From NCBI GenBank assembly GCA_009914755.4, contig CP086569.2:28352001-28416000 (forward strand): a stretch of DNA of 64,000 bases. Direction: 5' to 3'. Positions 31,201 through 64,000 of the stretch are shown piece by piece. The notes beneath the pieces are model-generated. The model was not told the origin of the DNA, searched no databases, and saw nothing but the letters and a program-made list of their open reading frames with translations. Each line of letters opens with the position of its first letter. Position 1 is the stretch's first letter. This DNA comes from the human T2T-CHM13v2.0 reference genome, Homo sapiens. The translations under genes and the position numbers were made by a program.

Positions 31201-31851
31201 ATGGACACGAATGCTCAAATTGAATGGACTCGAATGGAATGGAAACGAAAGGAATGTCATCGAATGGAGTTGAATCGATTGGAATGAAATCGCATAGAAT
31301 GCAGTGGAATCAAATGGAATTGAATCGAAAGGAAAGGAAGCGAATGGACTGAAATGAAATGGAATGGAATTGAATGGAAAGTAATGCAATGGAATAGAAT
31401 GGAACGAAATTTCACGGAATGGAATCAAACTGAATGGAATCAAATCAATGGAATATAATCAAATGGAATGGAAAGGAATTGAATGGAGTAGATGGGATTG
31501 GATGGGATTGGAATGAAATGTACTGGAAAGGACTCGAATTTCATGAAACGGAATGGAATGAATTGGAACGGAATGGACTCGAATGGAATGGAATGTCATG
31601 GAATGGCATCAAATGGAATGGCATCAAATGGAATGGAATCGAATGCAATGGAATGCTATGGAACGGAATGGAATGCATTGGAATGGAATGTCCTCTAATG
31701 GAATGGATTCGAGTGGAATGGAATCGAATATAATGGAGTCGAATGAAATGGAATTGAAAGGAATGGGATCGAATACAATGGAATATACTGGAATGTAATG
31801 TAATGAAGTCGAATGTAATTGACTGGAATGGAATGTACATGAATGGAATGT
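28298..31851 (+). repeat. HOR copy 9 (3554 bp)
   Basis: Anchor motif at 28298. Confidence 0.85.
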
Positions 31852-34800: not shown

Positions 34801-35395
34801 TCATCGAATGGAATTGAATCGATTGGAATGAAATCGCATAGAATGGAGTGGAATCAAATGGAATTGAATCGAAAGGAAAGGAAGCGAATGGACTGAAATG
34901 AAATGGAATGGAATTGAATGGAAAGTAATGCAATGGAATAGAATGGAACGAAATTTCACGGAATGGAATCAAACTGAATGGAATCAAATCAATGGAATAT
35001 AATCAAATGGAATGGAAAGGAATTGAATGGAGTAGATGGGATTGGATGGGATTGGAATGAAATGTACTGGAAAGGACTCGAATTTCATGAAACGGAATGG
35101 AATGAATTGGAACGGAATGGACTCGAATGGAATGGAATGTCATGGAATGGCATCAAATGGAATGGCATCAAATGGAATGGAATCGAATGCAATGGAATGC
35201 TATGGAATGGAATGGAATGCATTGGAATGGAATGTCCTCTAATGGAATGGATTCGAGTGGAATGGAATCGAATATAATGGAGTCGAATGAAATGGAATTG
35301 AAAGGAATGGGATCGAATACAATGGAATATACTGGAATGTAATGTAATGAAGTCGAATGTAATTGACTGGAATGGAATGTAAATGAATGGAATGT
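31852..35395 (+). repeat. HOR copy 10 (3544 bp)
   Basis: Anchor motif at 31852 (variant aatctcatgc). Confidence 0.85.
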
Positions 35396-38300: not shown

Positions 38301-38929
38301 AATGGACTCGAATGGAATGGAAACGAAAGGAATGTCATCGAATGGAATTGAATCGATTGGAATGAAATCGCATAGAATGGAGTGGAATCAAATGGAATTG
38401 AATCGAAAGGAAAGGAAGCGAATGGACTGAAATGAAATGGAATGGAATTGAATGGAAAGTAATGCAATGGAATAGAATGGAACGAAATTTCACGGAATGG
38501 AATCAAACTGAATGGAATCAAATCAATGGAATATAATCAAATGGAATGGAAAGGAATTGAATGGAGTAGATGGGATTGGATGGGATTGGAATGAAATGTA
38601 CTGGAAAGGACTCGAATTTCATGAAACGGAATGGAATGAATTGGAACGGAATGGACTCGAATGGAATGGAATGTCATGGAATGGCATCAAATGGAATGGC
38701 ATCAAATGGAATGGAATCGAATGCAATGGAATGCTATGGAATGGAACGGAATGCATTGGAATGGAATGTCCTCTAATGGAATGGATTCGAGTGGAATGGA
38801 ATCGAATATAATGGAGTCGAATGAAATGGAATTGAAAGGAATGGGATCGAATACAATGGAATATACTGGAATGTAATGTAATGAAGTGGAATGTAATTGA
38901 CTGGAATGGAATGTACATGAATGGAATGT
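35396..38929 (+). repeat. HOR copy 11 (3534 bp; 20-bp deletion allele)
   Basis: Anchor motif at 35396. Confidence 0.85.
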
Positions 38930-41900: not shown

Positions 41901-42478
41901 ATCGATTGGAATGAAATGGCATAGAATGGAGTGGAATCAAATGGAATTGAATCGAAAGGAAAGGAAGCGAATGGACTGAAATGAAATGGAATGGAATTGA
42001 ATGGAAAGTAAAGCAATGGAATAGAATGGAACGAAATTTCACGGAATGGAATCAAACTGAATGGAATCAAATCAATGGAATATAATCAAATGGAATGGAA
42101 AGGAATTGAATGGAGTAGATGGGATTGGATGGGATTGGAATGAAATGTACTGGAAAGGACTCGAATTTCATGAAACGGAATGGAATGAATTGGAACGGAA
42201 TGGAATCGAATGGAATGGAATGTCATGGAATGGCATCAAATGGAATGGCATCAAATGGAATGGAATCGAATGCAATGGAATGCAATGGAATGGAATGGAA
42301 TGCATTGGAATAGAATGTCCTCTAATGGAATGGATTCGAGTGGAATGGAATCGAATATAATGGAGTCGAATGAAATGGAATTGAAAGGAATGGGATCGAA
42401 TACAATGGAATATACTGGAATGTAATGTAATGAACTCGAATGTAATTGACTGGAATGGAATGTACATGAATGGAATGT
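38930..42478 (+). repeat. HOR copy 12 (3549 bp)
   Basis: Anchor motif at 38930. Confidence 0.85.
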
Positions 42479-45400
42479 AATCGAATGGAAAGTAATCCAA
42501 TGGAATAGAATCTAATGCAAGAAAATCGACTCAGATAGAGTAGAATGTAATGGAATGGAGTGCAGTGCAATGGAATGGAATGGAATGCAATGGAATGGAA
42601 TGGAATGGAATGGAATGGAATGGAATGGAATGGGATGGAATGGTATGGAATGGATAGTAATGGACTGGAGTGAAATGGACTGGAAAGGAATGGACTCAAA
42701 TTGAAAGGGCTCGAAAGGAATGGAGTCAAATGGAATGGTCTGGAATGGAATGAACACGAATGTAATGCAATCCAATAGAATGGAATCGAATGGCATGGAA
42801 TATAAAGAAATGGAATCGAAGAGAATGGAAACAAATGGAATGGAATTGAATGGAATGGAATTGAATGGAATGGGAACGAATGGAGTGAAATTGTATGCAG
42901 TAGAAGAGAATAGAATGGAATGCAAGCGAAAGGAAAGGAATGGATTGGAATGGAATGGAATTCATTGGAATGGAAGGGAATGTAGTGTAATGGACAGGCC
43001 TGGAATAAAGTGGAATGCTACGGTCTCGAATGGAATAAAAATGTATGGAATGGAATGCAATGAAACGGAATCGAATGTCATAGAATGTAATGGAATGCAA
43101 AAAAATGGACTCCAAAATCATTGACTGGAAAGGCTGGGTGTCGAAAGGAATTGACTCCAATGGAATGGAATCGAATGGAATGGAAGTGAATAGAATCGAA
43201 CTAAATCGAATGGAATGGAATTGATAGGAACGGAATGGAAAGGAATGCAATGATTTGGCATGGAATGGAATCGAATGGCATCTAATGGAATGGTATGGAA
43301 TGCAATGGAATGGAATGTATTAGAATGTAATGAACTTTAATGGAATGTACTCGAATGGATTCGACTGGAATGGAATGTTCTGGAAGTGAATGGACTCCAA
43401 TGGAATGCATTCAAAAGGAATGGAATCGTACGGAATGGAATCTAATGGAATGGAATTAAATGGAAATGAATCAAATTGAATAGCACGGAATTGAATTGAA
43501 TGGAATCGAATGCAATGGAATCTAATGAAACGGAAAGGAAAGGAATGGAATGGAATGGAATGGGCTGGAATGGAAAGGAATCGAAACGAATGGAATGGAA
43601 TCGAACTGAAGAGACTGGAATGGAATGCACTGGAATGGAAGGGAGTGTAATGGAGGGTTCTCGAAAAAAATGGAATCGAATGGAATGGAATTGAATGGAA
43701 CGGAATAGAGTCGAATGGAATTGAATGGAATGGAATGGACTAGAGTGAAATGGAATCGAACCACAAGGAATGGACAGGAATAGAATGGTCTCGAATTGAA
43801 TGGAATCGTATGGAATGGCATCAAACGGAATGGAATGCACTCGAATGCAATGGAGTCGAAACTAATGGACTGGAATAGAATGGACTCGACTGGTACGGAC
43901 TCCAATGGAATGGATTCGAATGGAAGGGAATCGAACGGAATGGACTCGAAGGGAAAAGACTGCAATGGAAAGGTCTCGAATGGAATGGAAATTAGTGGAA
44001 TGGAATGGAATCGAATGAAATGGAGTCAAAAGGAATGGAATCGAATGGCAAGAAATCGAATGTAATGGAATCGCAAGGAATTGATGTGAACGGAACGGAA
44101 TGGAATGGAATCCAAAGGAATGGAATAGAATGGAATGGAATCGAATGGAAAGGACTCGAATGGAAATCACTCGAATAGAATGCAATTTAATAAAATAGGA
44201 TGAAATGTAATGGAATGGAATGGAAAGGAATCGAAACGAAAGGAATGGAGACAGATGGAATGGAATGGAACAGAGAGCAATGGTATAGAATGGAATGCAA
44301 TCATCTGGAATGGAATGGAATGGAATGGAATGGAATGGAATGCCCTTGAATTAAATGGACTGGAATGGAATGGACTCGAACAGAGTGGAATGGAAAGTGT
44401 TGAGATAGAATGGAATGGACTCCTTTGGAATGGTCTAGTATGCAATGCAATGGACTGGCAGGGAATCAAAAGGAATGTAATCGAATGGATTGGACTGGAA
44501 TGCAATGGACTCGAATAGATTGGAAACGGAATGCAAAGGAATGGAATGGAATAGTATGGAATGGAATGGAAAGGAATGGAGTGGAATAGACTAGAGTGGA
44601 ATGGAATGGACTCGAAAGCAATGGACTGGAATGGAACTTTCTTGAATGGACTGGAATCAAACGGAATGGAATGCAATGCAATCAAATGGCATGGAATAAA
44701 ATAGAATGAAAGAGAATCAAATGGAATTGAATCGAATGGAATCGAATGGATTGGAAAGGAATAGAGTGGAATGGAATGGAATTGACTCAAATGGAATGGA
44801 CTAGAATGGAATGGATTCGAATGGAAGGCAAAGGAATGGAATCTATTGGAATGGACAGCAATGGAATGGAAAGGAAGGGATTGGAATGGACTCGAATGGA
44901 ATGGACTGCAATAGAAAGGATTCGAATGGAATGAAAAAGAATTGAATGGAATAGAACAGAATGGAATCAAATCGAATGAAATGGAATGGAATAGAAAGGA
45001 ATGGAATGAAATGGAATGGAAAGGATTCGAATGGAATGCAATCGAATGGAATGGAATCGAACGGAATGGAATAAAATGGAAGCAAACTGGCAAGAAATGG
45101 AATCGAAATGAATGGAGTGTTATGGAACGGACTCAAAAGGAATTGAATGTAATAGAATGGAGTGGAGTGGACTCGAATATAATGGACTGGAATGGAATGA
45201 AATCACATGGAATGGGAACGAATGGAATGGAATGGAAAGGAATGGAATCGAATGGAAAGGAATCGAATGGAAGGGAATGAAATTGAATCAACAGGAATGG
45301 AAGGGAATAGAATAGACGGTAATGGAATGGACTCGAATAGAATGGACACGAATGCTCAAATTGAATGGACTCGAATGGAATGGAAACGAAAGGAATGTCA

Positions 45401-45992
45401 TCGAATGGAATTGAATCGATTGGAATGAAATCGCATAGAATGGAGTGGAATCAAATGGAATTGAATCGAAAGGAAAGGAAGCGAATGGACTGAAATGAAA
45501 TGGAATGGAATTGAATGGAAAGTAAAGCAATGGAATAGAATGGAACGAAATTTCACGGAATGGAATCAAACTGAATGGAATCAAATCAATGGAATATAAT
45601 CAAATGGAATGGAAAGGAATTGAATGGAGTAGATGGGATTGGATGGGATTGGAATGAAATGTACTGGAAAGGACTCGAATTTCATGAAACGGCATGGAAT
45701 GAATTGGAACGGAATGGAATCGAATGGAATGGAATGTCATGGAATGGCATCAAATGGAATGGCATCAAATGGAATGGAATCGAATGCAATGGAATGCAAT
45801 GGAATGGAATGGAATGCATTGGAATAGAATGTCCTCTAATGGAATGGATTCGAGGGGAATGGAATCGAATATAATGGAGTCGAATGAAATGGAATTGAAA
45901 GGAATGGGATCGAATACAATGGAATATACTGGAATGTAATGTAATGAACTCGAATGTAATTGACTGGAATGGAATGTACATGAATGGAATGT
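42479..45992 (+). repeat. HOR copy 13 (3514 bp; 20-bp deletion allele)
   Basis: Anchor motif at 42479 (variant aatgcaagaaaatcg, shared with copy 14). Confidence 0.85.
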
Positions 45993-48900
45993 AATCGAAT
46001 GGAAAGTAATCCAATGGAATAGAATCTAATGCAAGAAAATCGACTCAGATAGAGTAGAATGTAATGGAATGGAGTGCAGTGCAATGGAATGGAATGGAAT
46101 GCAATGGAATGGAATGGAATGGAATGGAATGGAATGGAATGGAATGGGATGGAATGGTATGGAATGGATAGTAATGGACTGGAGTGAAATGGACTGGAAA
46201 GGAATGGACTCAAATTGAAAGGGCTCGAAAGGAATGGAGTCAAATGGAATGGTCTGGAATGGAATGAACACGAATGTAATGCAATCCAATAGAATGGAAT
46301 CGAATGGCATGGAATATAAAGAAATGGAATCGAAGAGAATGGAAACAAACGGAATGGAATTGAATGGAATGGAATTGAATGGAATGGGAACGAATGGAGT
46401 GAAATTGTATGCAGTAGAAGAGAATAGAATGGAATGCAAGCGAAAGGAAAGGAATGGATTGGAATGGAATGGAATTCATTGGAATGGAAGGGAATGTAGT
46501 GTAATGGACAGGCCTGGAATAAAGTGGAATGCTACGGTCTCGAATGGAATAAAAATGTATGGAATGGAATGCAATGAAACGGAATCGAATGTCATAGAAT
46601 GTAATGGAATGCAAAAAAATGGACTCCAAAATCATTGACTGGAAAGGCTGGGTGTCGAAAGGAATTGACTCCAATGGAATGGAATCGAATGGAATGGAAG
46701 TGAATAGAATCGAACTAAATCGAATGGAATGGAATTGATAGGAACGGAATGGAAAGGAATGCAATGATTTGGCATGGAATGGAATCGAATGGCATCGAAT
46801 GGAATGGAATGGAATGCAATGGAATGGAATGTATTAGAATGTAATGAACTTTAATGGAATGTACTCGAATGGATTCGACTGGAATGGAATGTTCTGGAAG
46901 TGAATGGACTCCAATGGAATGGATTCAAAAGGAATGGAATCGTACGGAATGGAATCTAATGGAATGGAATTAAATGGAAATGAATGAAATTGAATAGCAC
47001 GGAATTGAATTGAATGGAATCGAATGCAATGGAATCTAATGAAACGGAAAGGAAAGGAATGGAATGGAATGGAATGGGCTGGAATGGAAAGGAATCGAAA
47101 CGAATGGAATGGAATCGAACTGAAGAGACTGGAATGGAATGCACTGGAATGGAAGGGAGTGTAATGGAGGGTTCTCGAAAAAAATGGAATCGAATGGAAT
47201 GGAATTGAATGGAACGGAATAGAGTCGAATGGAATTGAATGGAATGGAATGGACTAGAGTGAAATGGAATCGAACCACAAGGAATGGACAGGAATAGAAT
47301 GGTCTCGAATTGAATGGAATCGTATGGAATGGCATCAAACGGAATGGAATGCACTCGAATGCAATGGAGTCGAAACTAATGGACTGGAATAGAATGGACT
47401 CGACTGGTACGGACTCCAATGGAATGGATTCGAATGGAAGGGAATCGAACGGAATGGACTCGAAGGGAAAAGACTGCAATGGAAAGGTCTCGAATGGAAT
47501 GGAAATTAATGGAATGGAATGGAATCGAATGAAATGGAGTCAAAAGGAATGGAATCGAATGGCAAGAAATCGAATGTAATGGAATCGCAAGGAATTGATG
47601 TGAACGGAACGGAATGGAATGGAATCCAAAGGAATGGAATAGAATGGAATGGAATCGAATGGAAAGGACTCGAATGGAAATCACTCGAATAGAATGCAAT
47701 TTAATAAAATAAGATCAAATGTAATGTAATGGAATGGAAAGGAATCGAAACGAAAGGAATGGAGACAGATGGAATGGAATGGAACAGAGAGCAATGGTAT
47801 AGAATGGAATGGAATCATCTGGAATGGAATTGAATGGAATGGAATAATATGAAATGGAATGGAATGGAATGGAATGCCCTTGAATTAAATGGACTGGAAT
47901 GGAATGGACTCGAACAGAGTGGAATGGAAAGTGTTGAGATAGAATGGAATGGACTCCTTTGGAATGGTCTAGTATGCAATGCAATGGACTGGCAGGGAAT
48001 CAAAAGGAATGTAATCGAATGGATTGGACTGGAATGCAATGGACTCGAATAGATTGGAAACGGAATGCAAAGGAATGGAATGGAATAGTATGGAATGGAA
48101 TGGAAAGGAATGGAGTGGAATAGACTAGAGTGGAATGGAATGGACTCGAAAGCAATGGACTGGAATGGAACTTTCTTGAATGGACTGGAATCAAACGGAA
48201 TGGAATGCAATGCAATCAAATGGCATGGAATAAAACAGAATGAAAGAGAATCAAATGGAATTGAATCGAATGGAATCGAATGGATTGGAAAGGAATAGAG
48301 TGGAATGGAATGGAATTGACTCAAATGGAATGGACTAGAATGGAATGGATTCGAATGGAAGGCAAAGGAATGGAATCTATTGGAATGGACAGCAATGGAA
48401 TGGAAAGGAAGGGATTGGAATGGACTCGAATGGAATGGACTGCAATAGAAAGGATTCGAATGGAATGAAAAAGAATTGAATGGAATAGAACAGAATGGAA
48501 TCAAATCGAATGAAATGGAATGGAATAGAAAGGAATGGAATGAAATGGAATGGAAAGGATTCGAATGGAATGCAATCGAATGGAATGGAATCGAACGGAA
48601 TGGAATAAAATGGAAGCAAACTGGCAAGAAATGGAATCGAAATGAATGGAGTGTTATGGAACGGACTCAAAAGGAATTGAATGTAATAGAATGGAGTGGA
48701 GTGGACTCGAATATAATGGACTGGAATGGAATGAAATCACATGGAATGGGAACGAATGGAATGGAATGGAAAGGAATGGAATCGAATGGAAAGGAATCGA
48801 ATGGAAGGGAATGAAATTGAATCAACAGGAATGGAAGGGAATAGAATAGACGGTAATGGAATGGACTCGAATAGAATGGACACGAATGCTCAAATTGAAT

Positions 48901-49526
48901 GGACTCGAATGGAATGGAAACGAAAGGAATGTCATCGAATGGAATTGAATCGATTGGAATGAAATCGCATAGAATGGAGTGGAATCAAATGGAATTGAAT
49001 CGAAAGGAAAAGAAGCGAATGGACTGAAATGAAATGGAATGGAATTGAATGGAAAGTAAAGCAATGGAATAGAATGGAACGAAATTTCACGGAATGGAAT
49101 CAAACTGAATGGAATCAAATCAATGGAATATAATCAAATGGAATGGAAAGGAATTGAATGGAGTAGATGGGATTGGATGGGATTGGAATGAAATGTACTG
49201 GAAAGGACTCGAATTTCATGAAACGGAATGGAATGAATTGGAACGGAATGGACTCGAATGGAATGGAATGTCATGGAATGGCATCAAATGGAATGGCATC
49301 AAATGGAATGGAATCGAATGCAATGGAATGCTATGGAATGGAATGGAATGCATTGGAATGGAATGTCCTCTAATGGAATGGATTCGAGTGGAATGGAATC
49401 GAATATAATGGAGTCGAATGAAATGGAATTGAAAGGAATGGGATGGAATACAATGGAATATAGTGGAATGTAATGTAATGAACTCGAATGTAATTGACTG
49501 GAATGGAATGTACATGAATGGAATGT
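45993..49526 (+). repeat. HOR copy 14 (3534 bp; 20-bp deletion allele)
   Basis: Anchor motif at 45993. Confidence 0.85.
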
Positions 49527-52500
49527 AATCGAATGGAAAGTAATCCAATGGAATAGAATCTAATGCAATAAAATCGACTCAGATAGAGTAGAATGTAATG
49601 GAATGGAGTGCAGTGCAATGGAATGGAATGGAATGGAATGCAATGGAATGGAATGGAATGGAATGGAATGGAATGGAATGGGATGGAATGGTATGGAATG
49701 GATAGTAATGGACTAGAGTGAAATGGACTGGAAAGGAATGGACTCAAATTGAAAGGGCTCGAAAGGAATGGAGTCAAATGGAATGGTCTGGAATGGAATG
49801 AACACGAATGTAATGCAATCCAATAGAATGGAATCGAATGGCATGGAATATAAAGAAATGGAATCGAAGAGAATGGAAACAAACGGAATGGAATTGAATG
49901 GAATGGAATTGAATGGAATGGGAACGAATGGAGTGAAATTGTATGCAGTAGAAGAGAATAGAGTGGAATGCAAGCGAAAGGAAAGGAATGGATTGGAATG
50001 GAATGGAATTCATTGGAATGGAAGGGAATGTAGTGTAATGGACAGGCCTGCAATAAAGTGGAATGCTACGGTCTCGAATGGAATAAAAATGTATGGAATG
50101 GAATGCAATGAAACGGAATCGAATGTCATAGAATGTAATGGAATGCAAAAAAATGGACTCCAAAATCATTGACTGGAAAGGCTGGGTGTCGAAAGGAATT
50201 GACTCCAATGGAATGGAATCGAATGGAATGGAAGTGAATAGAATCGAACTAAATCGAATGGAATGGAATTGATAGGAACGGAATGGAAAGGAATGAAATG
50301 ATTTGGTATGGAATGGAATCGAATGGCATCGAATGGAATGGAATGGAATGCAAGGCAATGTAATGTATTAGAATGTAATGAACTTTAATGGAATGTACTC
50401 GAATGGATTCGACTGGAATGGAATGTTCTGGAAGTGAATGGACTCCAATGGAATGGATTGAAAAGGAATGGAATCGTACGGAATGGAATCTAATGGAATG
50501 GAATTAAATGGAAATGAATCAAATTGAATAGCACGGAATTGAATTGAATGGAATCGAATGCAATGGAATCTAATGAAACGGAAAGGAAAGGAATGGAATG
50601 GAATGGAATGGGCTGGAATGGAAAGGAATCGAAACGAATGGAATGGAATCGAACTGAAGAGACTGGAATGGAATGCACTGGAATGGAAGGGAGTGTAATG
50701 GAAGGTTCTCGAAAAAAATGGAATCGAATGGAATGGAATTGAATGGAACGGAATAGAGTCGAATGGAATTGAATGGAATGGAATGGACTAGAGTGAAATG
50801 GAATCGAACCACAAGGAATGGACAGGAATAGAATGGTTTCGAATTGAACGGAATCGTATGGAATGGCATCAAACGGAATGGAATGGACAGCCACGGAATG
50901 GAATGCACTCGAATGCAATGGAGTCGAAACTAATGGACTGGAATAGAATGGACTCGACTGGTACGGACTCCAATGGAATGGAATCGAATGGAAGGGAATC
51001 GAACGGAATGGACTCGAAGGGAAAAGACTGCAATGGAAAGGTCTCGAATGGAATGGAAATTAATGGAATGGAATGGAATCGAATGAAATGGAGTCAAAAG
51101 GAATGGAATCGAATGGCAAGAAATCGAATGTAATGGAATCGCAAGGAATTGATGTGAACGGAACGGAATGGAATGGAATCCAAAGGAATGGAATAGAATG
51201 GAATGGAATCGAATGGAAAGGACTCGAATGGAAATCACTCGAATAGAATGCAATTTAATAAAATAGGATGAAATGTAATGGAATGGAATGGAAAGGAATC
51301 GAAACGAAAGGAATGGAGACAGATGGAATGGAATGGAACAGAGAGCAATGGTATAGAATGGAATGGAATCATCTGCAATGGAATTGAATGGAATGGAATA
51401 ACATGAAATGGAATGGAATGGAAAGAAATGCCCTTGAATTAAATGGACTGGAATGGAATGGACTCGAACAGAGTGGAATGGAAAGTGTTGAGATAGAATG
51501 GAATGGACTCCTTTGGAATGGTCTAGTATGCAATGCAATCGACTGGCAGGGAATCAAAAGGAATGTAATCGAATGGATTGGACTGCAATGCAATGGACTC
51601 GAATAGATTGGAAACGGAATGCAAAGGAATGGAATGGAATAGTATGGAATGGAATGGAAAGGAATGGAGTGGAATAGACTAGAGTGGAATGGAATGGACT
51701 CGAAAGCAATGGACTGGAATGGAACTTTCTTGAATGGACTGGAATCAAACGGAATGGAATGCAATGCAATCAAATGGCATGGAATAAAATAGAATTAAAG
51801 AGAATCAAATGGAATTGAATCGAATGGAATCGAATGGATTGGAAAGGAATAGAATGGAATGGAATGGAATTGACTCAAATGGAATGGATTCGAATGGAAG
51901 GCAAAGGAATGGAATCTATTGGAATGGACTGCAATGGAATGGAAAGGAAGGGATTGGAATGGACTCGAATGGAATGGACTGCAATAGAAAGGATTCGAAT
52001 GGAATGAAAAAGAATTGAATGGAATAGAACAGAATGGAATCAAATCGAATGAAATGGAATGGAATAGAAAGGAATGGAATGAAATGGAATGGAAAGGATT
52101 CGAATGGAATGCAATCGAATGGAATGGAATCGAACGGAATGGAATAAAATGGAAGCAAACTGGCAAGAAATGGAATCGAAATGAATGGAGTGTTATGGAA
52201 CGGACTCAAAAGGAATTGAATGTAATAGAATGGAGTGGAGTGGACTCGAATATAATGGACTGGAATGGAATGAAATCACATGGAATGGGAACGAATGGAA
52301 TGGAATGGAAAGGAATGGAATCGAATGGAAAGGAATCGAATGGAAGGGAATGAAATTGAATCAACAGGAATGGAAGGGAATAGAATAGACGGTAATGGAA
52401 TGGACTCGAATGGACACGAATGCTCAAATTGAATGGACTCGAATGGAATGGAAACGAAAGGAATGTCATCGAATGGAATTGAATCGATTGGAATGAAATC

Positions 52501-53060
52501 GCATAGAATGGAGTGGAATCAAATGGAATTGAATCGAAAGGAAAGGAAGCGAATGGACTGAAATGAAATGGAATGGAATTGAATGGAAAGTAAAGCAATG
52601 GAATAGAATGGAACGAAATTTCACGGAATGGAATCAAACTGAATGGAATCAAATCAATGGAATATAATCAAATGGAATGGAAAGGAATTGAATGGAGTAG
52701 ATGGGATTGGATGGGATTGGAATGAAATGTACTGGAAAGGACTCGAATTTCATGAAACGGAATGGAATGAATTGGAACGGAATGGACTCGAATGGAATGG
52801 AATGTCATGGAATGGCATCAAATGGAATGGCATCAAATGGCATGGAATCGAATGCAATGGAATGCTATGGAATGGAATGGAATGCATTGGAATGGAATGT
52901 TCTCTAATGGAATGGATTCGAGTGGAATGGAATCGAATATAATGGAGTCGAATGAAATGGAATTGAAAGGAATGGGATCGAATACAATGGAATATAGTGG
53001 AATGTAATGTAATGAACTCGAATGTAATTGACTGGAATGGAATGTACATGAATGGAATGT
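49527..53060 (+). repeat. HOR copy 15 (3534 bp)
   Basis: Anchor motif at 49527. Part of the 7068-bp two-unit duplication; 5-bp deletion at ~52411. Confidence 0.85.
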
Positions 53061-56000
53061 AATTGAATGGAAAGTAATCCAATGGAATAGAATCTAATGC
53101 AATAAAATCGACTCAGATAGAGTAGAATGTAATGGAATGGAGTGCAGTGCAATGGAATGGAATGGAATGGAATGCAATGGAATGGAATGGAATGGAATGG
53201 AATGGAATGGGATGGAATGGTATGGAATGGATAGTAATGGACTGGAGTGAAATGGACTGGAAAGGAATGGACTCAAATTGAAAGGGCTCGAAAGGAATGG
53301 AGTCAAATGGAATGGTCTGGAATGGAATGAACACGAATGTAATGCAATCCAATAGAATGGAATCGAATGGCATGGAATATAAAGAAATGGAATCGAAGAG
53401 AATGGAAACAAACGGAATGGAATTGAATGGAATGGAATTGAATGGAATGGGAACGAATGGAGTGAAATTGTATGCAGTAGAAGAAAATAGAATGGAATGC
53501 AAGCGAAAGGAAAAGAATGTATTGGAATGGAATGGAATTCATTGGAATGGAAGGGAATGTAGTGTAATGGACAGGCCTGGAATAAAGTGGAATGCTACGG
53601 TCTCGAATGGAATAAAAATGTATGGAATGGAATGCAATGAAACGGAATCGAATGTCATAGAATGTAATGGAATGCAAAAAAATGGAATCCAAAATCATTG
53701 ACTGGAAAGTCTGGATGTCGAAAGGAATTGACTCCAATGGAATGGAATCGAATGGAATGGAAGTGAATAGAATCGAACTAAATCGAATGGAATGGAATTG
53801 ATAGGAACGGAATGGAAAGGAATGAAATGATTTGGCATGGAATGGAATCGAATGGCATCGAATGGAATGGAATGGAATGCAATACAATGGAATGTATTAG
53901 AATGTAATGAACTTTAATGGAATGTACTCGAATGGATTCGACTGGAATGGAATGTTCTGGAAGTGAATGGACTCCAATGGAATGGATTGAAAAGGAATGG
54001 AATCGTACGGAATGGAATCTAATGGAATGGAATTAAATGGAAATGAATCAAATTGAATAGCACGGAATTGAATTGAATGGAATCGAATGCAATGGAATCT
54101 AATGAAACGGAAAGGAAAGGAATGGAATGGAATGGAATGGGCTGGAATGGAAAGGAATCGAAACGAATGGAATGGAAACGAACTGAAGAGACTGGAATGG
54201 AATGCACTGGAATGGAAGGGAGTGTAATGGAAGGTTCTCGAAAAAAGTGGAATCGAATGGAATGGAATTGAATGGAAGGGAATAGGGTCGAATGGAATTG
54301 AATGGAATGGAATGGACTAGAGTGAAATGGAATCGAACCACAAGGAATGGACAGGAATAGAATGGTCTCGAATTGAATGGAATCGTATGGAATGGCATCA
54401 AACGGAATGGAATGGAATGCACTCGAATGCAATGGAGTCGAAACTAATGGACTGGAATAGAATGGACTCGACTGGTACGGACTCCAATGGAATGGAATCG
54501 AATGGAAGGGAATCGAACGGAATGGACTCGAAGGGAAAAGACTGCAATGGAAAGGTCTCGAATGGAATGGAAATTAATGGAATGGAATGGAATCGAATGA
54601 AATGGAGTCAAAAGGAATGGAATCGAATGGCAAGAAATCGAATGTAATGGAATCGCAAGGAATTGATGTGAACGGAACTGAATGGAATGGAATCCAAAGG
54701 AATGGAATAGAATGGAATGGAATCGAATGGAAAGGACTCGAATGGAAATCACTCGAATAGAATGCAATTTAATAAAATAGGATGAAATGTAATGGAATGG
54801 AATGGAAAGGAATCGAAATGAAAGGAATGGAGACAGATGGAATGGAATGGAACAGAGAGCAATGGTATAGAATGGAATGGAATCATCTGGAATGGTATTG
54901 AATGGAATGGAATAACATGAAATGGAATGGAATGGAATGGAATGCCCTTTAATTAAATGGACTGGAATGGAATGGACTCGAACAGAGTGGAATGGAAAGT
55001 GTTGAGATAGAATGGAATGGACTCCTTTGGAATGGTCTAGTATGCAATGCAATCGACTGGCAGGGAATCAAAAGGAATGTAATGGAATGGATTGGACTGG
55101 AATGCAATGGACTCGAATAGATTGGAAACGGAATGCAAAGGAATGGAATGGAATAGTATGGAATGGAATGGAAAGGAATGGAGTGGAATAGACTAGAGTG
55201 GAATGGAATGGACTCGAAAGCAATGGACTGGAATGGAACTTTCTTGAATGGACTGGAATCAAACGGAATGGAATGCAATGCAATCAAATGGCATGGAATA
55301 AAACAGAATGAAAGAGAATCAAATGGAATTGAATCGAATGGAATCGAATGGATTGGAAAGGAATAGAGTGGAATGGAATGGAATTGACTCAAATGGAATG
55401 GACTAGAATGGAATGGATTCGAATGGAAGGCAAAGGAATGGAATCTATTGGAATGGACAGCAATGGAATGGAAAGGAAGGGATTGGAATGGACTCGAATG
55501 GAATGGACTGCAATAGAAAGGATTCGAATGGAATGAAAAAGAATTGAATGGAATAGAACAGAATGGAATCAAATCGAATGAAATGGAATGGAATAGAAAG
55601 GAATGGAATGAAATGGAATGGAAAGGATTCGAATGGAATGCAATCGAATGGAATGGAATCGAACGGAATGGAATAAAATGGAAGCAAACTGGCAAGAAAT
55701 GGAATCGAAATGAATGGAGTGTTATGGAACGGACTCAAAAGGAATTGAATGTAATAGAATGGAGTGGAGTGGACTCGAATATAATGGACTGGAATGGAAT
55801 GAAATCACATGGAATGGGAACGAATGGAATGGAATGGAAAGGAATGGAATCGAATGGAAAGGAATCGAATGGAAGGGAATGAAATTGAATCAACAGGAAT
55901 GGAAGGGAATAGAATAGACGGTAATGGAATGGACTCGAATAGAATGGACACGAATGCTCAAATTGAATGGACTCGAATGGAATGGAAACGAAAGGAATGT

Positions 56001-56594
56001 CATCGAATGGAATTGAATCGATTGGAATGAAATCGCATAGAATGGAGTGGAATCAAATGGAATTGAATCGAAAGGAAAAGAAGCGAATGGACTGAAATGA
56101 AATGGAATGGAATTGAATGGAAAGTAAAGCAATGGAATAGAATGGAACGAAATTTCACGGAATGGAATCAAACTGAATGGAATCAAATCAATGGAATATA
56201 ATCAAATGGAATGGAAAGGAATTGAATGGAGTAGATGGGATTGGATGGGATTGGAATGAAATGTACTGGAAAGGACTCGAATTTCATGAAACGGAATGGA
56301 ATGAATTGGAACGGAATGGACTCGAATGGAATGGAATGTCATGGAATGGCATCAAATGGAATGGCATCAAATGGAATGGAATCGAATGCAATGGAATGCT
56401 ATGGAATGGAATGGAATGCATTGGAATGGAATGTCCTCTAATGGAATGGATTCGAGTGGAATGGAATCGAATATAATGGAGTCGAATGAAATGGAATTGA
56501 AAGGAATGGGATGGAATACAATGGAATATAGTGGAATGTAATGTAATGAACTCGAATGTAATTGACTGGAATGGAATGTACATGAATGGAATGT
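53061..56594 (+). repeat. HOR copy 16 (3534 bp; 15-bp deletion allele)
   Basis: Anchor motif at 53061 (variant aattgaatgg). Variant gtctggatgtcg at ~53710. Confidence 0.85.
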
Positions 56595-59500
56595 AATCGA
56601 ATGGAAAGTAATCCAATGGAATAGAATCTAATGCAATAAAATCGACTCAGATAGAGTAGAATGTAATGGAATGGAGTGCAGTGCAATGGAATGGAATGGA
56701 ATGGAATGCAATGGAATGGAATGGAATGGAATGGAATGGAATGGAATGGGATGGAATGGTATGGAATGGATAGTAATGGACTAGAGTGAAATGGACTGGA
56801 AAGGAATGGACTCAAATTGAAAGGGCTCGAAAGGAATGGAGTCAAATGGAATGGTCTGGAATGGAATGAACACGAATGTAATGCAATCCAATAGAATGGA
56901 ATCGAATGGCATGGAATATAAAGAAATGGAATCGAAGAGAATGGAAACAAACGGAATGGAATTGAATGGAATGGAATTGAATGGAATGGGAACGAATGGA
57001 GTGAAATTGTATGCAGTAGAAGAGAATAGAGTGGAATGCAAGCGAAAGGAAAGGAATGGATTGGAATGGAATGGAATTCATTGGAATGGAAGGGAATGTA
57101 GTGTAATGGACAGGCCTGGAATAAAGTGGAATGCTACGGTCTCGAATGGAATAAAAATGTATGGAATGGAATGCAATGAAACGGAATCGAATGTCATAGA
57201 ATGTAATGGAATGCAAAAAAATGGACTCCAAAATCATTGACTGGAAAGGCTGGGTGTCGAAAGGAATTGACTCCAATGGAATGGAATCGAATGGAATGGA
57301 AGTGAATAGAATCGAACTAAATCGAATGGAATGGAATTGATAGGAACGGAATGGAAAGGAATGAAATGATTTGGTATGGAATGGAATCGAATGGCATCGA
57401 ATGGAATGGAATGGAATGCAAGGCAATGTAATGTATTAGAATGTAATGAACTTTAATGGAATGTACTCGAATGGATTCGACTGGAATGGAATGTTCTGGA
57501 AGTGAATGGACTCCAATGGAATGGATTGAAAAGGAATGGAATCGTACGGAATGGAATCTAATGGAATGGAATTAAATGGAAATGAATCAAATTGAATAGC
57601 ACGGAATTGAATTGAATGGAATCGAATGCAATGGAATCTAATGAAACGGAAAGGAAAGGAATGGAATGGAATGGAATGGGCTGGAATGGAAAGGAATCGA
57701 AACGAATGGAATGGAATCGAACTGAAGAGACTGGAATGGAATGCACTGGAATGGAAGGGAGTGTAATGGAAGGTTCTCGAAAAAAATGGAATCGAATGGA
57801 ATGGAATTGAATGGAACGGAATAGAGTCGAATGGAATTGAATGGAATGGAATGGACTAGAGTGAAATGGAATCGAACCACAAGGAATGGACAGGAATAGA
57901 ATGGTTTCGAATTGAACGGAATCGTATGGAATGGCATCAAACGGAATGGAATGGACAGCCACGGAATGGAATGCACTCGAATGCAATGGAGTCGAAACTA
58001 ATGGACTGGAATAGAATGGACTCGACTGGTACGGACTCCAATGGAATGGAATCGAATGGAAGGGAATCGAACGGAATGGACTCGAAGGGAAAAGACTGCA
58101 ATGGAAAGGTCTCGAATGGAATGGAAATTAATGGAATGGAATGGAATCGAATGAAATGGAGTCAAAAGGAATGGAATCGAATGGCAAGAAATCGAATGTA
58201 ATGGAATCGCAAGGAATTGATGTGAACGGAACGGAATGGAATGGAATCCAAAGGAATGGAATAGAATGGAATGGAATCGAATGGAAAGGACTCGAATGGA
58301 AATCACTCGAATAGAATGCAATTTAATAAAATAGGATGAAATGTAATGGAATGGAATGGAAAGGAATCGAAACGAAAGGAATGGAGACAGATGGAATGGA
58401 ATGGAACAGAGAGCAATGGTATAGAATGGAATGGAATCATCTGCAATGGAATTGAATGGAATGGAATAACATGAAATGGAATGGAATGGAAAGAAATGCC
58501 CTTGAATTAAATGGACTGGAATGGAATGGACTCGAACAGAGTGGAATGGAAAGTGTTGAGATAGAATGGAATGGACTCCTTTGGAATGGTCTAGTATGCA
58601 ATGCAATCGACTGGCAGGGAATCAAAAGGAATGTAATCGAATGGATTGGACTGCAATGCAATGGACTCGAATAGATTGGAAACGGAATGCAAAGGAATGG
58701 AATGGAATAGTATGGAATGGAATGGAAAGGAATGGAGTGGAATAGACTAGAGTGGAATGGAATGGACTCGAAAGCAATGGACTGGAATGGAACTTTCTTG
58801 AATGGACTGGAATCAAACGGAATGGAATGCAATGCAATCAAATGGCATGGAATAAAATAGAATTAAAGAGAATCAAATGGAATTGAATCGAATGGAATCG
58901 AATGGATTGGAAAGGAATAGAATGGAATGGAATGGAATTGACTCAAATGGAATGGATTCGAATGGAAGGCAAAGGAATGGAATCTATTGGAATGGACTGC
59001 AATGGAATGGAAAGGAAGGGATTGGAATGGACTCGAATGGAATGGACTGCAATAGAAAGGATTCGAATGGAATGAAAAAGAATTGAATGGAATAGAACAG
59101 AATGGAATCAAATCGAATGAAATGGAATGGAATAGAAAGGAATGGAATGAAATGGAATGGAAAGGATTCGAATGGAATGCAATCGAATGGAATGGAATCG
59201 AACGGAATGGAATAAAATGGAAGCAAACTGGCAAGAAATGGAATCGAAATGAATGGAGTGTTATGGAACGGACTCAAAAGGAATTGAATGTAATAGAATG
59301 GAGTGGAGTGGACTCGAATATAATGGACTGGAATGGAATGAAATCACATGGAATGGGAACGAATGGAATGGAATGGAAAGGAATGGAATCGAATGGAAAG
59401 GAATCGAATGGAAGGGAATGAAATTGAATCAACAGGAATGGAAGGGAATAGAATAGACGGTAATGGAATGGACTCGAATGGACACGAATGCTCAAATTGA

Positions 59501-60128
59501 ATGGACTCGAATGGAATGGAAACGAAAGGAATGTCATCGAATGGAATTGAATCGATTGGAATGAAATCGCATAGAATGGAGTGGAATCAAATGGAATTGA
59601 ATCGAAAGGAAAGGAAGCGAATGGACTGAAATGAAATGGAATGGAATTGAATGGAAAGTAAAGCAATGGAATAGAATGGAACGAAATTTCACGGAATGGA
59701 ATCAAACTGAATGGAATCAAATCAATGGAATATAATCAAATGGAATGGAAAGGAATTGAATGGAGTAGATGGGATTGGATGGGATTGGAATGAAATGTAC
59801 TGGAAAGGACTCGAATTTCATGAAACGGAATGGAATGAATTGGAACGGAATGGACTCGAATGGAATGGAATGTCATGGAATGGCATCAAATGGAATGGCA
59901 TCAAATGGCATGGAATCGAATGCAATGGAATGCTATGGAATGGAATGGAATGCATTGGAATGGAATGTTCTCTAATGGAATGGATTCGAGTGGAATGGAA
60001 TCGAATATAATGGAGTCGAATGAAATGAAATTGAAAGGAATGGGATCGAATACAATGGAATATAGTGGAATGTAATGTAATGAACTCGAATGTAATTGAC
60101 TGGAATGGAATGTACATGAATGGAATGT
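56595..60128 (+). repeat. HOR copy 17 (3534 bp)
   Basis: Anchor motif at 56595. Near-identical to copy 15. Confidence 0.85.
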
Positions 60129-63100
60129 AATTGAATGGAAAGTAATCCAATGGAATAGAATCTAATGCAATAAAATCGACTCAGATAGAGTAGAATGTAA
60201 TGGAATGGAGTGCAGTGCAATGGAATGGAATGGAATGGAATGCAATGGAATGGAATGGAATGGAATGGAATGGAATGGGATGGAATGGTATGGAATGGAT
60301 AGTAATGGACTGGAGTGAAATGGACTGGAAAGGAATGGACTCAAATTGAAAGGGCTCGAAAGGAATGGAGTCAAATGGAATGGTCTGGAATGGAATGAAC
60401 ACGAATGTAATGCAATCCAATAGAATGGAATCGAATGGCATGGAATATAAAGAAATGGAATCGAAGAGAATGGAAACAAACGGAATGGAATTGAATGGAA
60501 TGGAATTGAATGGAATGGGAACGAATGGAGTGAAATTGTATGCAGTAGAAGAAAATAGAATGGAATGCAAGCGAAAGGAAAAGAATTTATTGGAATGGAA
60601 TGGAATTCATTGGAATGGAAGGGAATGTAGTGTAATGGACAGGCCTGGAATAAAGTGGAATGCTACGGTCTCGAATGGAATAAAAATGTATGGAATGGAA
60701 TGCAATGAAACGGAATCGAATGTCATAGAATGTAATGGAATGCAAAAAAATGGAATCCAAAATCATTGACTGGAAAGTCTGGATGTCGAAAGGAATTGAC
60801 TCCAATGGAATGGAATCGAATGGAATGGAAGTGAATAGAATCGAACTAAATCGAATGGAATGGAATTGATAGGAACGGAATGGAAAGGAATGAAATGATT
60901 TGGCATGGAATGGAATCGAATGGCATCGAATGGAATGGAATGGAATGCAATACAATGGAATGTATTAGAATGTAATGAACTTTAATGGAATGTACTCGAA
61001 TGGATTCGACTGGAATGGAATGTTCTGGAAGTGAATGGACTCCAATGGAATGGATTGAAAAGGAATGGAATCGTACGGAATGGAATCTAATGGAATGGAA
61101 TTAAATGGAAATGAATCAAATTGAATAGCACGGAATTGAATTGAATGGAATCGAATGCAATGGAATCTAATGAAACGGAAAGGAAAGGAATGGAATGGAA
61201 TGGAATGGGCTGGAATGGAAAGGAATCGAAACGAATGGAATGGAAACGAACTGAAGAGACTGGAATGGAATGCACTGGAATGGAAGGGAGTGTAATGGAA
61301 GGTTCTCGAAAAAAGTGGAATCGAATGGAATGGAATTGAATGGAAGGGAATAGGGTCGAATGGAATTGAATGGAATGGAATGGACTAGAGTGAAATGGAA
61401 TCGAACCACAAGGAATGGACAGGAATAGAATGGTCTCGAATTGAATGGAATCGTATGGAATGGCATCAAACGGAATGGAATGGAATGCACTCGAATGCAA
61501 TGGAGTCGAAACTAATGGACTGGAATAGAATGGACTCGACTGGTACGGACTCCAATGGAATGGAATCGAATGGAAGGGAATCGAACGGAATGGACTCGAA
61601 GGGAAAAGACTGCAATGGAAAGGTCTCGAATGGAATGGAAATTAATGGAATGGAATGGAATCGAATGAAATGGAGTCAAAAGGAATGGAATCGAATGGCA
61701 AGAAATCGAATGTAATGGAATCGCAAGGAATTGATGTGAACGGAACTGAATGGAATGGAATCCAAAGGAATGGAATAGAATGGAATGGAATCGAATGGAA
61801 AGGACTCGAATGGAAATCACTCGAATAGAATGCAATTTAATAAAATAGGATGAAATGTAATGGAATGGAATGGAAAGGAATCGAAATGAAAGGAATGGAG
61901 ACAGATGGAATGGAATGGAACAGAGAGCAATGGTATAGAATGGAATGGAATCATCTGGAATGGTATTGAATGGAATGGAATAACATGAAATGGAATGGAA
62001 TGGAATGGAATGCCCTTTAATTAAATGGACTGGAATGGAATGGACTCGAACAGAGTGGAATGGAAAGTGTTGAGATAGAATGGAATGGACTCCTTTGGAA
62101 TGGTCTAGTATGCAATGCAATCGACTGGCAGGGAATCAAAAGGAATGTAATGGAATGGATTGGACTGGAATGCAATGGACTCGAATAGATTGGAAACGGA
62201 ATGCAAAGGAATGGAATGGAATAGTATGGAATGGAATGGAAAGGAATGGAGTGGAATAGACTAGAGTGGAATGGAATGGACTCGAAAGCAATGGACTGGA
62301 ATGGAACTTTCTTGAATGGACTGGAATCAAACGGAATGGAATGCAATGCAATCAAATGGCATGGAATAAAATAGAATGAAAGAGAATCAAATGGAATTGA
62401 ATCGAATGGAATCGAATGGATTGGAAAGGAATAGAATGGAATGGAATGGAATTGACTCAAATGGAATGGATTCGAATGGAAGGCAAAGGAATGGAATCTA
62501 TTGGAATGGACTGCAATGGAATGGAAAGGAAGGGATTGGAATGGACTCGAATGGAATGGACTGCAATAGAAAGGATTCGAATGGAATGAAAAAGAATTGA
62601 ATGGAATAGAACAGAATGGAATCAAATCGAATGAAATGGAATGGAATAGAAAGGAATGGAATGAAATGGAATGGAAAGGATTCGAATGGAATGCAATCGA
62701 ATGGAATGGAATCGAACGGAATGGAATAAAATGGAAGAAAACTGGCAAGAAATGGAATCGAAATGAATGGAGTGTTATGGAACGGACTCAAAAGGAATTG
62801 AATGTAATAGAATGGAGTGGAGTGGACTCGAATATAATGGACTGGAATGGAATGAAATCACATGGAATGGGAACGAATGGAATGGAATGGAAAGGAATGG
62901 AATCGAATGGAAAGGAATCGAATGGTAGGGAATGAAATTGAATCAACAGGAATGGAAGGGAATAGAATAGACGGTAATGGAATGGACTCGAATAGAATGG
63001 ACACGAATGCTCAAATTGAATGGACTCGAATGGAATGGAAACGAAAGGAATGTCATCGAATGGAATTGAATCGGTTGGAATGAAATCGCATAGAATGGAG

Positions 63101-63647
63101 TGGAATCAAATGGAATTGAATCGAAAGGAAAGGAAGCGAATGGACTGAAATGAAATGGAATGGAATTGAATGGAAAGTAAAGCAATGGAATAGAATGGAA
63201 CGAAATTTCACGGAATGGAATCAAACTGAATGGAATCAAATCAATGGAATATAATCAAATGGAATGGAAAGGAATTGAATGGAGTAGATGGGATTGGATG
63301 GGATTGGAATGAAATGTACTGGAAAGGACTCGAATTTCATGAAACGGAATGGAATGAATTGGAACGGAATGGACTCGAATGGAATGGAATGTCATGGAAT
63401 GGCATCAAATGGAATGGCATCAAATGGAATGGAATCGAATGCAATGGAATGCTATGGAATGGAATGGAATGCATTGGAATGGAATGTTCTCTAATGGAAT
63501 GGATTCGAGTGGAATGGAATCGAATATAATGGAGTCGAATGAAATGGAATTGAAAGGAATGGGATCGAATACAATGGAATATACTGGAATGTAATGTAAT
63601 GAACTCGAATGTAATTGACTGGAATGGAATGTACATGAATGGAATGT
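60129..63647 (+). repeat. HOR copy 18 (3519 bp; 15-bp deletion allele)
   Basis: Anchor motif at 60129. Near-identical to copy 16; extra 15-bp deletion at ~62465. Confidence 0.85.
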
Positions 63648-64000
63648 AATCGAATGGAAAGTAATCCAAAGGAATAGAATCTAATGCAATAAAATCGACT
63701 CAGATAGAGTAGAATGTAATGGAATGGATTGCAGTGCAATGGAATGGAATGGAATGGATGGAATGCAATGGAATGGAATGGAATGGAATGGAATGGAATG
63801 GAATGGGATGGAATGCTATGGAATGGATAGTAATGGACTGGAGTGAAATGGACTGGAAAGGAATGGACTCAAATTGAAAGGGCTCGAAAGGAATGGAGTC
63901 AAATGGAATGGTCTGGAATGGAATGAACACGAATGTAATGCAATCCAATAGAATGGAATCGAATGGCATGGAATATAAAGAAATGGAATCGAAGAGAATG
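63648..64000 (+). repeat. HOR copy 19, partial (window ends inside the unit)
   Basis: Anchor motif at 63648. The sequence continues in phase with the start of earlier units. Confidence 0.8.

What the first reader, a model, noticed from the sequence alone, without database searches (positions are those of the whole stretch)
48000..62140. Second two-unit tandem duplication (offset 7068 bp) near the 3' end of the window
Region ~48000-55067 is repeated at ~55068-62135 with near-perfect identity. Shared private variants include gcaataacatgaaatgg and ggaaagaaatgccc (51391-51425 / 58459-58493), the 5-bp deletion ctcgaatggacacg (52411 / 59478), and ECSLMEW-type changes. Only a few differences are visible. 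There is a G/C SNV at 50050 vs 57118, a T/G SNV at 53517 vs 60588, an A-to-A/G change at ~60025 and a 15-bp deletion near 62465 that is absent at 55395. Together with the 7083-bp duplication this shows the array growing in two-unit (ABAB) steps.
Basis: seen in the sequence. Interest (0 to 1): 0.5.

Follow-up and report, generated by a model that had tools for sequence, protein, structure and literature searches.

The report
Recent two-unit duplication in Y-satellite DYZ1
A 7,068-bp block (two neighbouring 3.5-kb repeat units) of the human Y-chromosome satellite DYZ1 has recently been copied in tandem, which is a real but ordinary example of how such satellite arrays are already known to grow and homogenise.

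Summary
Window 48017-55303 equals 55085-62371 at a fixed offset of 7,068 bp, with 3 substitutions and no indel in 7,287 bp (99.96%). Ordinary pairs of units in this window differ at 10-15 sites per kb, so P(<=3 mismatches) is about 1e-31.

The whole window is 18 head-to-tail units (3,514-3,554 bp) of the (GGAAT)n-derived satellite DYZ1/HSat3A6 of human Yq12. The evidence is:
- published DYZ1 primers match once per unit;
- the published HSat3A6 24-mer is present;
- there is one HaeIII site per unit;
- GC is 38.8% and CpG density is 1 per 35 bp.

The tract is one offset plus 219 bp long. All 3 internal differences are private to one copy, and the flanking differences are old polymorphisms shared with other units. 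The middle unit (U16) is a hybrid of a U18-type head and a U14-type tail. This is the signature of a single in-register unequal exchange displaced by two units, roughly 10^2-10^3 generations ago at the published Yq12 mutation rate.

The "array grows in two-unit ABAB steps" reading is only partly supported. A second, independent two-unit duplication exists, but so does a one-unit duplication. Once the recent events are removed there is no even/odd periodicity. Known sequence, known mechanism, low interest. An assembly artefact cannot be excluded without reads.

The parts
1..64000 (-). Uninterrupted DYZ1 / HSat3A6 satellite array: 18 head-to-tail units of 3,514-3,554 bp. The + strand shows GGAAT, so the classical TTCCA/CATTC strand is the - strand.
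   Evidence: TRF finds a 5-bp period over 65-63993. There is one GGACAGGCCTG/HaeIII anchor per unit. Primers and the 24-mer match. Composition is uniform across the window.
48017..55084 (.). Copy 1 of the 7,068-bp two-unit block: tail of U14, all of U15 and head of U16.
   Evidence: Offset-7068 identity with 3 mismatches and 0 indels.
55085..62152 (.). Copy 2 of the 7,068-bp block: tail of hybrid unit U16, all of U17 and head of U18.
   Evidence: U15 versus U17 is 0.9 mismatches/kb.
62153..62371 (.). 219-bp run-on of identity, also present at 48017-48235 and 55085-55303. It is the interval within which the exchange point must lie. The units two apart were already identical here.
   Evidence: The tract is 7,287 bp, which is 7,068 + 219. 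The first flanking differences (48016, 55304) are polymorphisms shared with other units.
50051..50051 (.). Post-duplication substitution in copy 1 (C). The other 17 units and 5 of 5 external DYZ1 contigs have G.
   Evidence: It lies inside the classical DYZ1 primer site.
60028..60028 (.). Post-duplication substitution in copy 2 (A). All other units and 4 of 4 external contigs have G.
60587..60587 (.). Post-duplication substitution in copy 2 (T). All other units in the window have G.
53569..57107 (.). Hybrid junction unit U16. Its head (to 55084-55303) is identical to U18's head and its tail is identical to U14's tail.
   Evidence: U16-U18 is 4.2/kb and U14-U16 is 7.1/kb, against a background of about 12/kb. 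The 15-bp segment is shared by U14 and U16 only.
55392..55406 (.). 15-bp segment (AATGGAATGGACTAG) present in U14 and U16 and absent in U15, U17 and U18. It is a pre-existing polymorphism just beyond the right edge of the tract.
4743..19002 (.). Independent earlier-in-window two-unit duplication: 4743-11919 = 11841-19002, at offset 7098 and then 7083. It carries 1 private SNV and a 15-bp deletion private to U04.
23151..30306 (.). One-unit duplication: 23151-26752 = 26705-30306, offset 3554, 5 private SNVs.

Best explanation
The window is part of a DYZ1 (HSat3A6) satellite array of human Yq12. Within it, one homologous exchange between copies of the array misaligned by exactly two units joined position x of unit i+2 to position x of unit i. 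The most likely route is unequal sister-chromatid exchange, because this part of the Y has no homologue. The exchange point lies somewhere in a 219-bp stretch where the two units were already identical. The product carries the 7,068-bp segment twice in tandem, with a hybrid unit (U16) at the junction. Since then one substitution has arisen in copy 1 and two in copy 2. The block is non-coding and has no function of its own. It is a snapshot of the expansion and homogenisation process that keeps DYZ1 units about 99% alike and makes Yq12 length polymorphic.

Shown: the identity tract, its boundaries, the hybrid unit, the private status of the 3 SNVs, and DYZ1 identity.

Inferred: the exchange mechanism, the sister chromatid as partner, the age, and the Y location.
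For: Identity of the sequence:
- 5-bp GAATG period across the window.
- 18 units of about 3.5 kb, each with one HaeIII site.
- Two classical DYZ1 primers, recalled from memory, match exactly once per unit and are 154 bp apart.
- 7 of the 8 DYZ1 primers in PMC3925983 Table 5 match once per unit, at positions that fit the published 3,564-bp map on the minus strand.
- The HSat3A6 24-mer of PMC4022460 Table 1 is present 35 times.
- GC is 38.8% and CpG density is 1 per 34.7 bp, against a published 38% and 1 per 35 bp for DYZ1.
- Five public contigs filed under unrelated bacteria are 98-99% identical to these units. This is the pattern of human HSat3 contamination described by the T2T-Y paper.

Duplication:
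- 3 mismatches and 0 indels in 7,287 bp, against a background of 10-15/kb.
- Tract length is the offset plus 219 bp. The other two events give offset plus 79-94 bp and offset plus 48 bp. A tandem duplication predicts this and a conversion tract does not.
- All three internal differences are singletons. The ancestral base is found in every other unit for all three, and in the external contigs for the two sites whose context could be matched there.
- The flanking differences are polymorphisms shared with other units.
- U16 is a head/tail hybrid.

Mechanism precedent:
- T2T-Y reports iterative tandem duplications consistent with unequal exchange, and sister-chromatid exchanges in Yq12 in about 15% of Strand-seq libraries.
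- A four-generation pedigree shows about one de novo SV per Y transmission. These are 2,416-4,839 bp, each affecting whole DYZ2 repeat unit(s) of about 2.4 kb. The same study gives a Yq12 SNV rate of 3.86e-7 per bp per generation.
- With that rate, 3 SNVs imply about 550 generations (95% interval 113-1,607).
Against: - No reads are available, so a false duplication made by the assembler cannot be excluded.
- The mechanism cannot be separated from replication-based template switching or break-induced replication, which would leave the same product.
- The age depends on a mutation rate that includes conversion-like events. With an assumed euchromatic-like rate of 2e-8 it would be about 10,600 generations.
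- The species and chromosome are inferred from diagnostic sequences, not from mapping to an assembly. PMC4022460 lists HSat3A6 as 'Y, 7'.
- The three 'private' SNVs are private only within this 64-kb window. Donor units elsewhere in the array could carry them.
Confidence: 0.85

Rival explanations
1. Gene conversion without copy gain. Two pre-existing units (i+2, i+3) were overwritten by a non-reciprocal 7.3-kb transfer from units i, i+1, so the array did not grow.
For: Interlocus gene conversion is frequent in Yq12. 29% of de novo SNVs there match non-orthologous sites, and 17% of events are classed as conversion in PMC13252187. Shorter exact tracts of 0.6-1.0 kb at lags 1, 2, 3 and 5 in this window look conversion-sized.
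Against: A conversion tract has no reason to be as long as the donor-acceptor distance. Here all three long tracts are the offset plus only 48-219 bp. That is the chance run-on expected at about 1% divergence. A 7.3-kb tract is also much longer than the other exact tracts seen in the window.
Confidence: 0.06
2. Assembly artefact. The assembler walked a repeat loop twice and created a false extra copy of a two-unit block.
For: Yq12 is the hardest region of the genome to assemble. PMC13252187 describes unwalked or mis-walked loops in tandem repeats. Near-identical copies are what a false duplication looks like.
Against: - The copies differ at three sites, each private to one copy. A re-used consensus would be identical.
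- The junction unit is a clean hybrid in register.
- From general knowledge, the whole 14.3-kb structure is short enough to be spanned by single long reads.
- Two other events of the same kind, with different ages, are in the same window.
Confidence: 0.05
3. An emerging dimeric (about 7.07 kb) higher-order repeat. DYZ1 here preferentially exchanges in two-unit register, so ABAB blocks are the real unit of growth.
For: Two of the three recent events in the window are two-unit duplications.
Against: - One event is one-unit.
- There is no even/odd periodicity in divergence versus lag after removing the recent events.
- The A and B units of the two events are unrelated, at 12.5-15/kb.
- Breakpoints differ between the two events.
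- Intermediate-similarity pairs are mostly lag 1.
- Published de novo DYZ2 SVs range from 2,416 to 4,839 bp, which corresponds to one to two of the ~2.4-kb units.
Confidence: 0.04

Closest known systems
DYZ1 / HSat3A6 satellite of human Yq12 (3.56-kb HaeIII repeat; Nakahori 1986 as cited in PMC3925983 and PMC4022460; T2T-Y and Hallast et al. 2023)
   Same: It has a pentamer base, a unit of about 3.5 kb with one HaeIII site, the diagnostic 24-mer and primers, matching GC and CpG density, and about 98-99% identity between units.
   Different: None of the 17 complete units has the canonical 3,564/3,569 bp. They are 3,514-3,554 bp and differ by multiples of 5 bp. This is within known variation.
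Tandem duplications by unequal exchange in Yq12 (T2T-Y) and de novo whole-unit DYZ2 gains and losses in a pedigree (PMC12240836)
   Same: An in-register gain of an integer number of satellite units, with no junction scar, followed by slow divergence.
   Different: It is in DYZ1 and not DYZ2, and it is inferred from sequence and not observed in transmission. At 7 kb its scale is far below the Mb-scale duplications highlighted for T2T-Y.
Alpha-satellite higher-order repeats and their local expansions
   Same: The same homogenisation logic applies. Neighbouring units are more alike than distant ones, and divergence rises with lag.
   Different: There is no stable multi-unit higher-order period here above the 3.5-kb unit. 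The 7-kb blocks are single events.

Membership tests
DYZ1 / HSat3A6 | Derived from tandem pentamer CATTC/GGAAT | tested here: met
   TRF gives period 5, consensus GAATG, over 65-63993. Base composition is A 40%, G 30%, T 21%, C 8%.
DYZ1 / HSat3A6 | Nested repeat of about 3.5-3.6 kb with one HaeIII (GGCC) site per unit | tested here: met
   17 GGCC sites are spaced 3,514-3,554 bp apart. One site is lost, giving a 7,063-bp fragment. The published unit is 3,564/3,569 bp.
DYZ1 / HSat3A6 | Subfamily-specific 24-mer TCGTTTCGATTCCTTTCCATTCCA (PMC4022460 Table 1) | tested here: met
   35 matches on the - strand (30 exact, 5 with one mismatch), against 0 expected.
DYZ1 / HSat3A6 | Published DYZ1 PCR primers anneal in the published order | tested here: met
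   Primers A-G of PMC3925983 match 17-18 times, with 0-2 mismatches, at positions that fit the 3,564-bp map. Primer H as printed was not found at 2 mismatches or fewer. The 154-bp primer pair matches 18 times. Those two primer sequences are from memory, and a literature search did not find them.
DYZ1 / HSat3A6 | GC about 38% and about 1 CpG per 35 bp (Hallast et al.) | tested here: met
   GC is 38.8% and CpG density is 1 per 34.7 bp.
DYZ1 / HSat3A6 | Located in Yq12 of a human male, alternating with DYZ2 blocks | not testable with these tools
   No human assembly is available. The window contains no DYZ2 and no array edge.
Tandem duplication by in-register unequal homologous exchange | Near-identity tract equals the duplication offset plus only a short chance run-on | tested here: met
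   The tract is 7,287 bp against an offset of 7,068 bp. The same holds for the two other events.
Tandem duplication by in-register unequal homologous exchange | Differences inside the tract are new and private, and differences at the edges are old and shared | tested here: met
   Column states across 18 units and external DYZ1 contigs.
Tandem duplication by in-register unequal homologous exchange | Hybrid junction unit with no inserted or deleted bases at the junction | tested here: met
   U16 has U18's head and U14's tail. The offset is constant and the tract has 0 indels.
Tandem duplication by in-register unequal homologous exchange | Both copies really present in the individual's DNA | not testable with these tools
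   This needs the long reads behind the assembly.
Stable dimeric (ABAB) higher-order repeat | Units an even number apart are systematically more alike than units an odd number apart | tested here: not met
   Mean divergence by lag 1-7, after removing recent events, is 10.5, 10.0, 11.6, 11.9, 12.4, 12.6, 13.0 per kb.
Stable dimeric (ABAB) higher-order repeat | The same A and B unit types recur along the array | tested here: not met
   U15/U16 versus U02-U05 differ by 12.5-15.1/kb, the same as the background.

The most novel reading that the evidence does not exclude
DYZ1 arrays could have a real bias toward two-unit register in unequal exchange, for example because of a structural or chromatin periodicity of about 7 kb. 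Local dimeric higher-order repeats would then be nascent, and this window would catch two independent instances of that.
Probability: 0.05. Interest if true: 0.3.

Novelty: already known. Interest (0 to 1): 0.1.

Why it matters
It matters little on its own. It is a clean, base-resolved example of the unit-level gain events that homogenise DYZ1 and drive Yq12 length polymorphism. It has datable copies, a breakpoint interval of 219 bp and a visible hybrid unit. Events like this could serve as rare-event markers of Y lineages, or as calibration points for satellite turnover rates if catalogued across assemblies. The kind of sequence and the mechanism are both well documented.

Tried and rejected
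The ORFs of 120-270 aa are low-complexity translations of the pentamer (…IPFHS…, …MESNGME…) on both strands, repeated once per unit.
- Larger-scale periodicity. The best global self-offset, 24,798 bp (7 units), only reflects unit lengths adding up in register. Lag-7 divergence is 13.0/kb, no lower than the other lags.
- Internal sub-duplication of the 3.5-kb unit. No 150-bp segment of U03 matches elsewhere in the unit at 82% or more (one search was a script error).
- Literature look-up of the 23-nt primer as a string found nothing. The primers from PMC3925983 were used instead.
- Scan of bacterial and archaeal genomes. It returned only 5 short contaminant contigs of 3.6 kb or less. They were useful as external DYZ1 units for polarising two of the three SNVs, but are too short to show any two-unit structure.
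Full report
**What the window is.** The 64-kb window is strongly strand-biased (A 40%, G 30%, T 21%, C 8%; GC 38.8%). Tandem Repeats Finder reads it as one array of a degenerate pentamer GAATG from 65 to 63993. On top of the pentamer there is a sharp periodicity of about 3.5 kb.
- A motif containing a HaeIII site (GGACAGGCCTG) occurs once per period and divides the window into 18 head-to-tail units. The 17 complete units are 3,514-3,554 bp long, and all length differences are multiples of 5 bp.
- Two classical DYZ1 primers that I recalled from memory match exactly once per unit and bracket 154 bp.
- Citable evidence: seven of the eight DYZ1 primers listed in PMC3925983 match once per unit, at positions that fit that paper's 3,564-bp map read on the minus strand.
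- The 24-mer listed for HSat3A6 in PMC4022460 is present 35 times.
- GC content and CpG density (1 per 34.7 bp) equal the values published for DYZ1, which are 38% and 1 per 35 bp.
- Five public contigs filed under unrelated bacteria are 98-99% identical to these units. This fits the human HSat3 contamination of microbial databases reported by the T2T-Y paper.

I therefore take the window to be an interior piece of a DYZ1 (HSat3A6) array of human Yq12, shown in the GGAAT orientation. Its chromosomal position could not be tested.

**Check of the observation.** At a fixed offset of 7,068 bp, positions 48017-55303 equal 55085-62371 with three substitutions and no indel. The substitutions are 50051 C/G, 52960 G/A and 53519 G/T. 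This is 99.96% identity over 7,287 bp.
- An alignment of all units gives a mean of 11.7 mismatches/kb over the 136 pairs of complete units. The lowest value outside three recent events is 6.5/kb. The probability of three or fewer mismatches in 7,068 bp is about 1e-31 at the mean background and 2e-16 at the lowest.
- Two of the 'private' strings are indeed found only in the two copies, and the 5-bp deletion is private to U15 and U17.
- One quoted string is slightly wrong. The true string is shared by four units.
- The 15-bp indel is real but lies beyond the right edge of the identical tract. It is an older polymorphism, present in U14 and U16 and absent in U15, U17 and U18.

**Anatomy and mechanism.** Four features point to a single tandem duplication by in-register homologous exchange displaced by two units.
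1. The identical tract is one offset plus 219 bp long. A duplication of 7,068 bp must give exactly 7,068 bp of identity, plus a run-on until the first pre-existing difference between units two apart. At about 1% divergence that run-on is expected to be of the order of 100-200 bp. A conversion tract has no such constraint.
2. All three internal differences are singletons. Every other unit in the window carries the alternative base at all three sites. The external DYZ1 contigs carry it at the two sites whose context could be matched there. So there has been one new mutation in copy 1 and two in copy 2.
3. The first differences outside the tract on both sides are polymorphisms shared with other units.
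4. The unit at the junction, U16, is a hybrid. Its head is identical to the head of U18 and its tail to the tail of U14, including the 15-bp segment.

The exchange point lies somewhere in the 219-bp segment that is now present three times (48017-48235, 55085-55303, 62153-62371). Because this part of the Y has no homologue, unequal sister-chromatid exchange is the most likely route. A replication-based template switch would give the same product, and the two cannot be told apart here.

Published work already documents this behaviour:
- Hallast et al. infer expansion and contraction inside arrays.
- A four-generation pedigree shows about one de novo SV per Y transmission, 2,416-4,839 bp in size, each affecting whole DYZ2 repeat unit(s). 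Given the ~2.4-kb DYZ2 unit, that corresponds to one to two units.

With the pedigree Yq12 SNV rate of 3.86e-7 per bp per generation, three differences imply about 550 generations (95% interval 113-1,607). With an assumed euchromatic-like rate of 2e-8 it would be about 10,600 generations. This dating is an inference.

**The 'two-unit steps' interpretation.** The window holds three recent events.
- Two-unit event at 4743-11919 = 11841-19002. The offset is 7,098 and then 7,083 bp. It carries one private SNV and a 15-bp deletion private to U04. The tract is the offset plus 79-94 bp.
- The present two-unit event.
- One-unit event at 23151-26752 = 26705-30306. The offset is 3,554 bp, with five private SNVs. 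The tract is the offset plus 48 bp.

The two two-unit events have different breakpoints within the unit, and their units are as diverged from each other as any others. They are independent. Once the recent pairs are set aside, divergence rises smoothly with distance in units: 10.5, 10.0, 11.6, 11.9, 12.4, 12.6 and 13.0 per kb for lags 1-7. There is no even/odd alternation, and the next most similar pairs are mostly immediate neighbours. Shorter exact tracts of 0.6-1.0 kb occur at lags 1, 2, 3 and 5 and look like conversion or older exchange. So there is no dimeric higher-order repeat. 'A' and 'B' are simply two adjacent ordinary units, and three events cannot show a preference for two-unit steps.

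**Rivals.**
- Gene conversion without copy gain is disfavoured by the tract-length argument, which holds for all three events.
- An assembly artefact cannot be excluded without reads. It is made less likely by the three copy-specific SNVs, the clean hybrid unit, and the presence of similar events of different ages.
- A coding interpretation is rejected. The long ORFs are low-complexity translations of the pentamer.

**Verdict.** The feature is real and correctly described. It is a recent tandem duplication of two DYZ1 units, and an ordinary instance of a known process in a known satellite. Interest is low. The only mildly novel reading left open is a genuine bias toward two-unit register, which needs a census over whole arrays.

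Noticed in passing
window 4028-4050: Unit U01 has lost its HaeIII site (GGCC to GGCT within the conserved GGACAGGCCTG motif). A HaeIII digest would give a 7,063-bp 'dimer' fragment here.
   Followed up: partly
window 23151-30306: One-unit tandem duplication (23151-26752 = 26705-30306, offset 3,554 bp) with five private SNVs. It is older than both two-unit events.
   Followed up: yes
window 4743-19002: The other two-unit duplication: one private SNV (13191) and a 15-bp deletion private to U04, which changes the offset from 7,098 to 7,083 bp. It is independent of the 7,068-bp event.
   Followed up: yes
window 40620-41620 and 47668-48668: A 1,001-bp exact match between units two apart (U12 and U14) that runs across the left edge of the 7,068-bp tract. 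Its size suggests gene conversion or a remnant of an older exchange.
   Followed up: no
window ~63741-63766: A private 4-bp insertion (…ggaatggaatggATGGaatgc…) in U18 breaks the 5-bp frame. Every other indel among the units is a multiple of 5 bp. It could be a real frame-breaking mutation or a base-level assembly error.
   Followed up: no
whole window: None of the 17 complete units has the canonical DYZ1 length (3,564/3,569 bp). They are 3,514-3,554 bp, so this stretch of the array carries a set of 5-, 15- and 20-bp deletions shared by subsets of units.
   Followed up: partly
L001-L005 (BMRF01000076.1, CALPCJ010000043.1, NZ_JBFAJD010000109.1, BNBB01000077.1, CAYVXY010000078.1): Contigs in genome assemblies labelled Actinomadura, Senimuribacter, Streptomyces, Streptosporangium and a Polyangiaceae MAG are 98-99% identical to DYZ1 units. 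They are almost certainly human male DNA contamination.
   Followed up: partly
window 50040-50062: The post-duplication SNV at 50051 falls inside the annealing site of the classical 154-bp DYZ1 sexing primer, 3 bp from the HaeIII site.
   Followed up: no
alignment columns ~1453-1754 of the unit (e.g. window 23151, 26752, 48017-48235): The exchange intervals of the one-unit event and of the 7,068-bp event lie within about 300 bp of each other in unit coordinates, next to a segment with 5- and 20-bp indel polymorphism. With only two events this may be coincidence.
   Followed up: no
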